From assembly GCA_964016885.1 (NCBI GenBank), contig OZ024743.1:85932001-85996000 (forward strand): DNA of 64,000 nt, read 5' to 3'. The notes beneath the pieces are model-generated. The model did no database searches. It was not told the DNA's origin and saw only the letters and a program-made list of their open reading frames with translations. The position numbers were made by a program, and so were the translations under genes. This DNA is from Eledone cirrhosa (lineage: Eukaryota). Shown piece after piece: positions 37,651 to 40,898 of the stretch (the stretch's first letter is position 1; every line of letters starts with the position of its first letter).

Positions 37651-38463
37651 ATGGGGTCTCCACCAAGCAAAAAGATGGCGGAGAACCTGAAGAGCCATGG
37701 GTTTCTGAGGACCCTGGCACAGATAGAGAGAAAGAGAAAAGAAATTGAGAAGGCGTATGTCCTCATAGCGCCACATATGGCGATGCTAAGCCGTGTCCTC
37801 AGGGAGGAGAAAACCGAAGAGAGGGATGAGGAGAAAGAGAGGGAGAAGGAAGAGGAAAAAGAAAAGGAGGAGAGCACAAGCACGGACCTGAAAGAAAATG
37901 ATATACCCTCCACCACATGCAGGGAGGGCAGGCCGGGCAACCAACAAGCAAAGGGCAAAGGTGAAAAGCGAAATCACCTTCCGAAGGAGAACCAAGCGCA
38001 GAGGGACCAGTGGACAACTGTTCAAAGGAAGAACAGAAAGCACCGAGACACTGGGAGCAAAAAAACCCAAGTAATGTGCAAGTTTTTCAAGAACGGGACA
38101 TGCTGGCATGGAGAGACAGGGATGGGATGCAGATTCGCCCACCCTAGGTCTCAAACGAACTATGCCCATCATACTCGCGCAACATGCCCCAGCCAAAGCC
38201 GAAATAAGCCGCTCCAGAAGTATGCTGATGTCGCGCGTGCCGCACCAACAAGGAGAAGGCACGCACATGCCGACGAGATACAGATGGCAGCAGCAGATCA
38301 GAAAAATTTTTTAGTGATGGCAGAGAAGATTGTGGGACAGCTGACCTGGCTGCATCGTCTCCAGAGCCAAGGTCATCCCCACCAGCACTCGAGACCACCA
38401 GACCAGGTGTCATACCGACAGCCATTACTGGCACCCCAAAAGTCACACCAGTTCTGCTGCTGA
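37651..38463 (+). CDS. LINE ORF1 with charged helical region and CCCH zinc finger
   Basis: 270-aa [25 protein letters not shown] = C-x7-C-x8-C-x3-H. Confidence 0.7.
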
Positions 38464-40898
38464 ATGTCAGAGGCCTGGTGAAACTCAGTAACATTAGTAA
38501 AATTTCCTACCTGGGAGACTTAGCCATAAGCAATCAAGCACTATGCATGGCACTAACAGAAACGCACCTGACAAGCAGTATAGCAGATGCAGAAATACAT
38601 ATACCGAAATATACTGTATTTCGTTCGGACAGGAAGGAGAGAACTCATGGTGAGAGAACTCATGGTGGGGTTGCTCTGTATATCCGTGAAGATGTCACAC
38701 CAATTGTACTGTTGACACATTCAAACTCAGTCTGTGACACACTGATAATACATATGAAGCAACTACAGACAGTAATATGTGTCACATATCGGCCGCCCGA
38801 TGCCCCCAGTCATGAGGGTAAATTTGAGGATAGCCTAAGTAGGATAGAAGAGGTCCTTGACAAACTGGACCAGGGTCTCAACATCCTACTGCTGGGAGAC
38901 TTCAACCTACCAAAGGTCAAATGGCCTGAGGGCCACCTCCTCCCTGGAATGACGTCAATAGAACAGAGACAGACGGAATCCCTGCTGGCCCTCACACACA
39001 GGCTGTTCATGGAGCAAGCAATACTCCTCCCAACAAGAGGCGAAAATGTCCTGGACCTCTGTTTTACAAACAACAAAGTGCTCATCCACAATGTAAAGGT
39101 GACACCAACAATTCTCTCGGATCATAACTTAGTAGAGCTAATGATATATGGTCCAAGAGAACCAACAGAGACAAAACCATCAAGAAGCTCCGGGACGCTA
39201 TCCAGCCTTAACTTCTACAAGGCTAACTGGAAAAAGATTAAGAGTGAAATCCGGAAGCAAACATGGAGTGAAAACACTGCCACACAAGACACTAACACAC
39301 AATTTCAACACTTCATGACAACGATACACACTATATGCAAAAAGTGTGTCCCGGAGAAAGAGGCAAACAGACACAAAAATCTTATTCCCAGAGATAGGAA
39401 AATCCTTATGAGACGTAGAACTAAACTCTCAAACCAGTTGAATAGTCAACAAAACAAAAACAAGAAGGAATCCTATTTGAAACGTGCACTACTTGACACC
39501 GAGATTGCATTCAAACTTTCACATGAGAATGAGAGGGCAAAGAAAGAGAACAGGGCCATAGAAAACATTAAAACAAACCCTAAGGCCTTCTTTAAATTTG
39601 CAAAAGAAACTGCCTTAGTACACTGCAAGATTGGGCCACTCATCCACACGGACGGTTCATTAACCGAAAACCCCCAAGAGATATGTGAAATACTGAACGA
39701 ACAGTACAAAAGTGTCTTCACATGTCCACTGGGGCACATGCAAATAACGAAGCCAGAGGAGTTCTTTGATGCCACAACACTACATCAAGAAATGGCAACC
39801 ATCAACCACATAGACATAACGGAGGAGGATGTGGTGTACGCCATTGATGAAATTAGAACAGACTCGGCTGCTGCACCTGATGGATTCCCAGCAGTTCTCT
39901 TAAAAATATGTAAGCGGGCCTTAGCAACTCCACTGAAGATGCTCTTCAGAAGCTCCTTGGCTAGCGGTGTACTACCCAGGGAGCTGAAAGAAGGCACAAT
40001 ATGCCCTATCCATAAAGGATGTAGTAGAGCGGAGGCCAAGAACTATAGGCCAGTCTCCCTGACGTCGCATATCAGTAAGGTCATGGAGCGAGTCGTCAGA
40101 AAGAAACTAATCACTTTCCTCGAAGAAAATGACCGCCTGACTAGCACGCAACATGGCTTCCGCCCAGGAAGAAGCTGCCTTACACAGCTGCTACATCACT
40201 ACGACTGGGTACTGAGACAACTACTAGACAGCTCACATGTGTACGTGATATATCTTGACTTTGCGAAGGCCTTTGACAAGGTCGACCACGGAATGATATG
40301 TCACAAACTACACGGACTCGGCATAACTGGAAAAGTAGGTGAGTGGCTGCATGGCTTCCTAAGGGACAGAAGCCAGGCAGTCGCAGCAAATGGGGCCCTC
40401 TCGAGGGAAACACCGATAACAAGTGGGGTGCCCCAGGGGACAGTCCTGGGACCACTACTGTTTTTGGTGGCTCTCTCGGACATGCCCTCTATGGTGCATG
40501 CAACAACATCCCTCACTAGCTATGCTGATGACACTAAGGTAGCACAGGCAATCAAAAACCCGGTTGACGCTGCCCTTTTACAGCAGGATCTGGATGCCAT
40601 ATACAGATGGGCGGAAGAAAACAACATACAGTTTAATGCTGGCAAATTCCAAGCCCTACAATACAAACCTGCAAACACAAATATAGTGGAACACAGCTAC
40701 ACAGGACCAGGAGGGACCGATATCCCCGTGTCAAAATCGATACGAGACCTGGGCATAGACATGAGCGATGATGCATCTTTTTCTTCACACATCATGAAAG
40801 TGGCGACAACGTGCAGACGACTCGCTGGCTGGATCTTGAGGACTTTCCGGACAAGAGATCGAGACACCATGTTGACACTGTGGAGGCTTTTGTCCTAA
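38307..40898 (+). CDS. LINE ORF2 (APE endonuclease-reverse transcriptase); start placed at the proposed slippery site
   Basis: The frame is open from 38229 to 40898. The conserved endonuclease start LLLNVRGL lies upstream of the track's GTG at 38478. Confidence 0.75.
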   Translation, partial: FFSDGREDCGTADLAASSPEPRSSPPALETTRPGVIPTAITGTPKVTPVLLLNVRGLVKLSNISKISYLGDLAISNQALCMALTETHLTSSIADAEIHIPKYTVFRSDRKERTHGERTHGGVALYIREDVTPIVLLTHSNSVCDTLIIHMKQLQTVICVTYRPPDAPSHEGKFEDSLSRIEEVLDKLDQGLNILLLGDFNLPKVKWPEGHLLPGMTSIEQRQTESLLALTHRLFMEQAILLPTRGENVLDLCFTNNKVLIHNVKVTPTILSDHNLVELMIYGPREPTETKPSRSSGTLSSLNFYKANWKKIKSEIRKQTWSENTATQDTNTQFQHFMTTIHTICKKCVPEKEANRHKNLIPRDRKILMRRRTKLSNQLNSQQNKNKKESYLKRALLDTEIAFKLSHENERAKKENRAIENIKTNPKAFFKFAKETALVHCKIGPLIHTDGSLTENPQEICEILNEQYKSVFTCPLGHMQITKPEEFFDATTLHQEMATINHIDITEEDVVYAIDEIRTDSAAAPDGFPAVLLKICKRALATPLKMLFRSSLASGVLPRELKEGTICPIHKGCSRAEAKNYRPVSLTSHISKVMERVVRKKLITFLEENDRLTSTQHGFRPGRSCLTQLLHHYDWVLRQLLDSSHVYVIYLDFAKAFDKVDHGMICHKLHGLGITGKVGEWLHGFLRDRSQAVAANGALSRETPITSGVPQGTVLGPLLFLVALSDMPSMVHATTSLTSYADDTKVAQAIKNPVDAALLQQDLDAIYRWAEENNIQFNAGKFQALQYKPANTNIVEHSYTGPGGTDIPVSKSIRDLGIDMSDDASFSSHIMKVATTCRRLAGWILRTFRTRDRDTMLTLWRLLS

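What the first reader, a model, noticed from the sequence alone, without database searches (positions are those of the whole stretch)
38229..38480. CR1-like LINE appears to express an AUG-less ORF2 by programmed -1 ribosomal frameshifting
Seen in sequence: ORF1 reads CAG AAA AAT TTT TTA GTG, which places two overlapping X XXY YYZ heptamers in the correct phase (A AAU UUU at 38304-38310 and U UUU UUA at 38307-38313). The -1 frame is ORF2 and has no stop from 38229 onward. It also has no AUG before the conserved endonuclease motif LLLNVRGL; its first AUG comes later, in LCMALTETHL. Downstream pairings could form a stimulatory hairpin or pseudoknot: GATG(G)CAG 38315-38323 with CTGCATC 38350-38356, TGACCT-GGCT with AGCC-A-AGGTCA, and GTGGGA with TCCC-CAC. 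Established: UUUUUUA is the HIV-1 gag-pol slippery site, whereas studied LINEs (L1, SART1) make ORF2 by reinitiation or coupling. Inference: this family makes a CCCH-ORF1/APE/RT fusion in retroviral style.
Basis: partly seen in the sequence, partly recalled or inferred. Interest (0 to 1): 0.75.

Follow-up and report, generated by a model that had tools for sequence, protein, structure and literature searches.

The report
HIV-type frameshift site in invertebrate LINEs
An abundant octopus-type jumping gene and seven distant relatives keep the same seven-letter slippery sequence that HIV uses, exactly where their first gene overlaps an enzyme gene that mostly has no usable start codon, so ribosomes likely slip back one base there to make a predicted fused copying enzyme, although no helper RNA structure was found and nothing has been tested in cells.

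Summary
Observation confirmed; the proposed RNA stimulator is not. This dead copy belongs to a young CR1-group LINE family (CCCH-finger ORF1) in a 3-Gb octopus-like genome. The -1 overlap is a family trait (30 of 30 closest copies), not a copy indel. The first ORF2 AUG lies inside the endonuclease, behind the Asn that matches L1 N14. In a clade with mostly 25-43% endonuclease identity, 8 of 9 readable lineages, including a second family in this genome, carry T TTT TTA in ORF1 phase in an open -1 overlap; the ninth has A AAA AAC. Keeping the amino acids, codon choice alone gives such a site with P 0.005-0.045 per lineage. Wider CR1 group: 25 of 32 -1 overlaps have a canonical heptamer (3.6 expected), 0 of 9 +1 overlaps. 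No conserved 3' hairpin or pseudoknot in this clade. Best reading: low-level -1 ribosomal frameshifting giving an ORF1-ORF2 fusion (0.78). Main rival: non-AUG reinitiation, since ORF1 often stops at the endonuclease start. No RNA or reporter data. The scan earlier noted U UUA AAC-plus-stop sites in vertebrate CR1, U UUU UUA in Penelope elements, and one unnamed slippery site in a LINE of this genome.

The parts
37557..38463 (+). ORF1 (about 320 aa in intact copies): basic/acidic N-half, CCCH-type finger, then 'NFL', an amphipathic helix and a Q/P/H-rich tail. In this copy it is broken by a 1-nt insertion near 37653.
   Evidence: only protein relative found: Octopus vulgaris P0001, 54%
38077..38148 (+). 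CCCH-type zinc finger in ORF1 (weak Pfam match)
   Evidence: PF00642 E=0.09, below the curated cut-off; CCCH-like motifs 51-155 aa before the site in 6 of 7 other T TTT TTA lineages
38226..38228 (+). Last stop codon (TGA) of the -1 frame; the overlap begins behind it
38304..38310 (+). A AAT TTT: second in-phase heptamer, found only in this family
38307..38313 (+). T TTT TTA slippery heptamer in ORF1 phase (predicted shift site); context AAT TTT TTA G reads N-F-L like the HIV-1 site
   Evidence: 30 of 30 closest copies; 66 of 84 distinct copies; 8 of 9 clade lineages; HIV-1 site as in PMC6547452 passages
38229..38463 (+). ORF1/ORF2 overlap, open in both frames (235 nt here, 268 nt in the family; 36-nt in-frame deletion at about 38396 in this copy)
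38332..38382 (+).
38451..38477 (+). Endonuclease strand beta-1 / motif I (VLLLNVRGL); the ORF1 stop TGA (38461-38463) overlaps CTG AAT
   Evidence: aligns to L1 ORF2p ITILTLNINGL; strand E2-7 in the AlphaFold model, mean pLDDT 94
38547..38549 (+). First AUG of ORF2 in this copy (LCMALTETHL), 28 codons behind the motif I Asn
38229..41171 (+). ORF2: linker, APE endonuclease, reverse transcriptase. In this copy: 15-nt duplication near 38637, frameshift near 40890, stop at 40973, then an assembly gap.
   Evidence: Pfam Exo_endo_phos, Exo_endo_phos_2, RVT_1
42680..43459 (+). 3' fragment of a second LINE family (family B) of the same clade; its full-length copies elsewhere carry TCT TTT TTA GCC in a -1 overlap

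Best explanation
This LINE family likely makes its endonuclease/reverse-transcriptase protein by programmed -1 ribosomal frameshifting at U UUU UUA inside ORF1, giving a predicted ORF1-ORF2 fusion. Shown: the heptamer sits in ORF1 phase, the -1 frame is open from it to the endonuclease, ORF2 has no AUG before the first endonuclease strand, and the same site is kept at the same ORF1 position (xFL, before an amphipathic helix) on both main branches of the clade. Inferred: most ribosomes read through in frame and make ORF1p with its C-terminal helix and Q/P-rich tail; a small share slip after Phe or Leu and continue through a 50-130 aa S/T/P/A-rich linker into the endonuclease, so the fusion would keep the CCCH finger and lose the helix. 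Because no 3' structure is conserved, the slip is likely low-level, driven by the U6A run itself and perhaps by slow decoding of the rare UUA codon (3 of 68 Leu codons in the sampled ORF2), as reported for HIV-1. A low ORF2:ORF1 ratio would suit a LINE (recalled, not tested).
For: Family trait: 30 of 30 closest copies have the -1 overlap and site (the 30 include this window and were the best matches); genomic read sets show no other letter or indel at the site among the rows listed. About 50 of 150 scored copies have an intact 1076-aa ORF2 frame (counted by eye). An AUG start would drop strand beta-1 and the N14-equivalent Asn; in family B the first AUG is at aa 147, behind TETH as well. Clade (support 1.0; family B and L159 placed): T TTT TTA in 8 of 9 lineages, A AAA AAC in L072; pairwise endonuclease identity 25-43% except one pair at 57%. 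With amino acids fixed and each element's codon usage, P(site) = 0.005-0.045 per lineage and P(-1 frame open to the endonuclease) = 0.011-0.16 (family B 0.26). The last -1 stop lies 3-18 nt before the heptamer in 7 of 8 lineages, 78 nt here. Wider CR1 group: 25 of 32 -1 overlaps with a canonical heptamer against 3.6 expected, 17 of 20 among those without AUG, 0 of 9 +1 overlaps. The site survives in the active lineage although its A|T centre changes in 8.4% of copy positions against 1.2-2.3% in flanks.
Against: No RNA, ribosome or protein data: no RNA run was listed. No conserved 3' stimulator in the clade: mean z -0.4 to -0.7, p 0.08-0.73 for hairpins at spacer 5-9. ORF1 also stays open beyond chance (P 0.06-0.74 each) and stops within -8 to +10 nt of the endonuclease start in 7 of 9 lineages, which is what stop-coupled reinitiation would predict. 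L154 has AUGs before motif I, and L072 has an AUG and only a weakly significant heptamer (P 0.26). In the wider group the A AAA AAC and T TTA AAC cases are partly explained by conserved Lys-Asn or Leu-Asn (P 0.06-0.46). Lineages share ancestry and the site was recognised after the fact, so the per-lineage P values cannot simply be multiplied. No relative longer than 1430 aa was found (weak).
Confidence: 0.78

Rival explanations
1. ORF2 is made by termination-reinitiation at the ORF1 stop on a near-cognate codon (here GUG or CUG; the last CUG overlaps the UGA), as with AUG-independent L1 ORF2 or SART1 coupling. The heptamer would be incidental or a second route.
For: ORF1 stop within -8 to +10 nt of the endonuclease start in 7 of 9 lineages; GTG CTG CTG CTG at -10 to -1 here and ATG at -4 in L154; reinitiation tolerates non-AUG codons in caliciviruses and L1 (PMC5972666 and PMC5009743 passages).
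Against: It does not explain the conserved heptamer or 150-400 nt of open -1 frame upstream. L152 and L158 have no near-cognate start within -33 to +12 of the stop; family B stops 59 nt earlier. No UGGGA 40-90 nt before the stop in 10 of 10 checked. The Leu-Asn codons of motif I themselves create a stop in the ORF1 frame. A start at the last Leu would lose most of strand beta-1.
Confidence: 0.1
2. TTTTTTAG is a 3' splice acceptor, and a spliced RNA joins an upstream exon to the ORF2 frame.
For: G follows the heptamer in 6 of 8 lineages, giving U6-AG.
Against: L155 has TTTTTTACAG (AG in another phase) and L161 has no AG there. The upstream context is purine-rich with a CAG 10 nt before. [quoted passage not shown] Copies made through RNA keep the region unspliced.
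Confidence: 0.04
3. RNA polymerase II stutters on the T run and adds one U, putting ORF2 in frame at the RNA level.
For: A5T6 run; 9 of 84 copies differ in length at the site.
Against: All 8 lineages have exactly six T followed by A, in codon phase, which matters to ribosomes and not to polymerase. Six T is short for polymerase slippage (recalled).
Confidence: 0.04
4. The site is a protein motif (Phe-Leu opening a conserved helix) and the -1 overlap is a by-product; ORF2 is started some other way, such as an internal non-AUG start.
For: FL opens a heptad-like helix in 8 of 8 lineages; ORF1 is under selection to stay open.
Against: Phe-Leu can be written many ways; all 8 use T-TTT-TTA although TTA is a rare Leu codon (3 of 68 and 6 of 67) and TTC outnumbers TTT.
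Confidence: 0.04

Closest known systems
HIV-1 gag-pol -1 frameshift (U UUU UUA; PMC6547452 abstract and passages, PMC5009743 passages)
   Same: Same heptamer and same Asn-Phe-Leu context; RNA-binding protein upstream, polymerase downstream in the -1 frame; rare UUA codon.
   Different: Non-LTR element; no conserved stem-loop 3' of the site; no protease seen to cut the fusion; efficiency unmeasured.
Dictyostelium TRE5-A and TRE3-A (APE-type non-LTR elements; PMC5911963, figure-legend passage only)
   Same: ORF2 with APE and RT said to need a -1 frameshift.
   Different: Amoebozoan, tRNA-gene-targeting elements of another lineage; the passage names no slippery site and I did not see the primary data.
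Human L1 and silkworm SART1 ORF2 translation (PMC5009743, PMC5972666 passages; primary papers not held)
   Same: Two-ORF LINE with ORF2 downstream; L1 does not depend on its AUG.
   Different: Their ORFs are separated by a spacer or touch at a stop-start; here they overlap by 130-410 nt in the -1 frame with a conserved heptamer at the front.
CR1-group LINEs (PMC4120745, PMC13343379; term-search passages)
   Same: APE + RT ORF2, variable ORF1; some relatives carry PHD plus CCCH.
   Different: Neither text holds 'frameshift', 'overlap' or 'CCCH' (supplements not read). This clade does not group with bird CR1; its Repbase clade name was not determined.

Membership tests
Programmed -1 ribosomal frameshift signal | X XXY YYZ heptamer in the upstream ORF's phase | tested here: met
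   T TTT TTA 38307-38313
Programmed -1 ribosomal frameshift signal | -1 frame open from the heptamer into a functional ORF that lacks its own start | tested here: met
   7 of 9 clade lineages have no AUG before motif I
Programmed -1 ribosomal frameshift signal | Conservation at nucleotide level beyond amino-acid need | tested here: met
   8 of 9 lineages; P 0.005-0.045 each with amino acids fixed
Programmed -1 ribosomal frameshift signal | 3' stimulatory hairpin or pseudoknot 5-9 nt downstream | tested here: not met
   long-range pairing and protein-assisted stimulators not tested
Programmed -1 ribosomal frameshift signal | Measured shift or transframe product | not testable with these tools
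   no RNA holder listed; needs reporter, profiling or mass spectrometry
CR1-group (APE-RT) LINE | ORF2 with APE endonuclease and RT | tested here: met
Canonical CR1 clade | ORF2 groups with vertebrate CR1 | tested here: not met
   bird CR1 proteins P0106 and P0109 fall on another branch (FastTree, midpoint root, no curated references)
Canonical CR1 clade | Esterase-type ORF1 | tested here: not met
   only a weak zf-CCCH match
Canonical CR1 clade | 3' hairpin and short terminal repeats | not tested
   the copy's 3' end lies in an N gap from 41172
Termination-reinitiation (SART1, calicivirus type) | Stop codon next to the ORF2 start | tested here: inconclusive
   stop near the endonuclease start in 7 of 9, but no AUG there except L154, and no near-cognate codon in L152 or L158
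Termination-reinitiation (SART1, calicivirus type) | UGGGA (TURBS motif 1) 40-90 nt before the stop | tested here: not met
   0 of 10; the only UGGGA lies 164 nt upstream

The most novel reading that the evidence does not exclude
Retrovirus-style -1 frameshifting is the normal way a large part of the animal CR1 group makes its reverse transcriptase: different branches use different viral slippery sites (U UUU UUA in the CCCH clade, U UUA AAC or U UUU UUA plus a hairpin in esterase CR1, A AAA AAC and G GGA AAC elsewhere), and their ORF2 protein exists as a Gag-Pol-like ORF1-ORF2 fusion. In this clade it works without an RNA structure, tuned by tRNA-Leu(UAA) supply, and swaps ORF1's oligomerising helix for the enzyme.
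Probability: 0.45. Interest if true: 0.85.

Novelty: new variant of a known kind. Interest (0 to 1): 0.65.

Why it matters
How LINEs translate ORF2 is known from very few elements (L1, SART1), and reinitiation is the usual model. A conserved HIV-type shift site in a widespread invertebrate clade would mean that these LINEs make an ORF1-ORF2 fusion, changing how their ribonucleoprotein is thought to assemble. It would explain the many annotated ORF2 proteins that begin inside the endonuclease, correct their annotation, and supply a natural set of structure-free U6A sites for studying frameshifting. The claim is directly testable with a short reporter insert.

Tried and rejected
Copy-specific indel: rejected. 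Expression or splicing: no RNA holder listed, so untested. Viral contigs gave 0 and 2 loci, no junctions. Fused forms above 1430 aa: none found (weak). Two single-member proteins, P0071 and P0037, read ORF1 and ORF2 in one frame; without their DNA I cannot tell a natural fusion from an indel, so they are not counted. N-termini of the 120 listed ORF2 relatives often start inside the endonuclease, but the gene callers are unknown, so this is not counted. The first hotspot count held 5 duplicate loci and was redone. Literature: ten searches found no paper describing a slippery site in CR1-group LINEs; subscription journals, Repbase Reports and supplements were not seen, and three papers asked for were not held. 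Older suggestions of frameshifting for overlapping ORFs in insect and fungal LINEs are recalled only.
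Full report
Setting. The window is G000:C4:85932001-85996000 in a 3.0-Gb animal assembly. The only protein relative of ORF1 found is from Octopus vulgaris (54% identity), so the host is likely an octopus relative. The finding lies in a 5'-clipped, dead copy (37257-41171) of a young LINE family, here family A: 884 candidates for the junction DNA, and about 50 of 150 scored copies with an intact 1076-aa ORF2 frame (counted by eye). 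The copy differs from copy L023 at 73 of 2887 aligned bases and has a 1-nt insertion near 37653, a 36-nt in-frame deletion near 38396 and a 15-nt duplication near 38637, plus a frameshift near 40890 and a stop at 40973. ORF2 holds an APE endonuclease and an RT; ORF1 has a weak CCCH match, E = 0.09.

Observation. All 30 best-matching loci (this window plus 29) keep the site and the -1 overlap. Over three searches (not a random sample; 5 duplicates removed, 1 locus not covering the site) 66 of 84 copies keep T TTT TTA in phase. Four DNA runs of one study list no other letter or indel at the site in the rows shown. The first AUG of ORF2 lies behind VLLLNVRGL: 28 codons after the Asn here and in older copies, 10 codons after it in the young subfamily. 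That Asn aligns with N14 of human L1 ORF2p (the role of N14 is recalled), and the motif forms strand beta-1 of a confident model (pLDDT 94). So the family needs a non-standard way into ORF2.

Distant relatives. Eukaryotic contigs hidden in genome and metagenome collections gave 160 loci, viral contigs 2 (each large scan kept its best 80). Of 163 loci examined (with L023), 86 had an endonuclease hit and 51 a readable ORF1/ORF2 junction: 35 in -1, 11 in +1, 5 in frame. After dropping four near-duplicates and one false ORF1, and keeping only true overlaps, 25 of 32 -1 overlaps hold a canonical heptamer in ORF1 phase against 3.6 expected from the ORF1 background (32 in 14,840 codons); 0 of 9 +1 overlaps do (0.5 expected); 17 of 20 -1 overlaps without an upstream AUG do. 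[quoted passage not shown]

The own clade. An ORF2 tree (FastTree, 760 columns) gives a clade with support 1.0 that holds family A and excludes bird CR1. A second family in this genome, family B, whose 3' fragment lies at 42680-43459, falls on the other main branch (36% identity to family A). Nine lineages have a readable junction: A, B, L072, L152, L154, L155, L158, L159, L161. All nine overlap in -1. Eight have T TTT TTA at the same ORF1 position, xFL before a heptad-like helix, and L072 has A AAA AAC. In family B the site is unchanged in 25 of 25 copies that cover it (5 of 30 are truncated) and the first ORF2 AUG is at aa 147. Seven of nine have no AUG before motif I. With amino acids fixed and each element's codon usage, the chance of a heptamer at that place is 0.005-0.045 per lineage (0.26 for L072), and of an open -1 frame down to the endonuclease 0.011-0.16 (family B 0.26). 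These lineages are related and the site was found after the fact, so I do not multiply the values; but at 25-43% protein identity synonymous positions should be saturated. The heptamer lies 3-18 nt behind the last -1 stop in 7 of 8 lineages. L075, outside the clade by ORF2 but with a CCCH ORF1, has the same site.

What does not fit. No stimulator: folds behind the site are at shuffle level here and across the clade, whereas three esterase-ORF1 relatives do show a hairpin 10-11 nt downstream (p <= 0.03), so the test can detect one. ORF1 also stays open longer than chance and stops within -8 to +10 nt of the endonuclease start in 7 of 9 lineages. That favours reinitiation or a functional ORF1 tail; the Leu-Asn codons of motif I make a stop there likely anyway, family B stops 59 nt earlier, and two lineages have no near-cognate start near the stop. 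In the wider group the A AAA AAC and T TTA AAC cases are weaker under the amino-acid null (0.06-0.46). No RNA data were available.

Mechanism. Shown: phase, openness, lack of AUG, conservation. Inferred: tandem slippage on UUU UUA; product ORF1(N-part, CCCH)-Phe-Leu or Phe-Phe-linker-APE-RT; loss of the ORF1 C-terminal helix in the fusion; low efficiency; a role for scarce tRNA-Leu(UAA), by analogy with HIV-1 (PMC6547452, abstract and passages). I put -1 ribosomal frameshifting at 0.78, reinitiation at 0.10, and splicing, polymerase stutter and protein-level coincidence at 0.04 each.

Comparison and novelty. It works like HIV-1 gag-pol in site and layout, but fails the test for a 3' structure. 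Among non-LTR elements, TRE5-A and TRE3-A are said to need a -1 frameshift (PMC5911963, legend passage), Paramecium LINEs may use +1 shifting or reinitiation (PMC5405496, passages), and L1 and SART1 reinitiate (PMC5009743, PMC5972666, passages). Two CR1-group surveys do not contain the word frameshift (PMC4120745, PMC13343379, term search of main text; supplements not read). Ten searches found no description of this site (listed under Tried and rejected); the library lacks most subscription journals and Repbase. Earlier notes of this scan report U UUA AAC plus stop in vertebrate CR1 (33 findings), U UUU UUA in Penelope elements of this genome, and a slippery site in a LINE of this genome that I could not match to a family; a look-up by this junction's sequence found nothing. 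They are unchecked notes and were read after my own count. Verdict: a new variant of a known kind, well supported by comparison and unproven by experiment; interest 0.65.

Noticed in passing
window 38305-38308 and family A copies: The centre of the palindromic AAAAATTTTT run changes in 28 of 335 copy positions (8.4%) against 1.2-2.3% in flanks, with many different alleles: a mutation hotspot after insertion (sample not random).
   Followed up: partly
L081, L181, L168 (10-11 nt after the heptamer): Esterase-ORF1 CR1 relatives have a heptamer next to the ORF1 stop and a strong hairpin with similar arms (GGCACTCCT/AGGGGAGTGC, GGCGCTCCT/AGGGGAGTGCC, AGCCCCTT/AAGGGGCT), p <= 0.03: a candidate true stimulator.
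   Followed up: partly
window 37260-37559: A long pyrimidine tract ends in CCACAG just before the ORF1 ATG in family A, like a 3' splice acceptor; a 5' UTR intron or trans-splicing is possible.
   Followed up: no
L160, L165, L172, L173, L183, L199, L208; L166, L169: CR1-group elements with another ORF1 type carry A AAA AAC (A/S-K-N) or G GGA AAC (G-N) in -1 overlaps.
   Followed up: partly
P0071, P0037: Single proteins with CCCH (and PHD) fingers fused in frame to APE-RT; P0071 reads DSFFR at the place of the site, like the predicted shift product. Natural fusion or indel is unknown.
   Followed up: partly
window 36990-37256 and 41860-42110: Two inverted copies of a very high-copy short repeat flank the LINE (depth in the millions).
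   Followed up: no
window 59269-59946 (-): 3' fragment of a third, more canonical CR1-type LINE.
   Followed up: no
L071-L150: Many prokaryote genome bins in GTDB contain animal LINE contigs, which is host contamination.
   Followed up: no
P0095, P0097, P0114, P0116, P0118: More distant ORF2 relatives carry GDVELNPGP-like 2A motifs before the endonuclease, another recoding signal in this group (identification as 2A is recalled).
   Followed up: no
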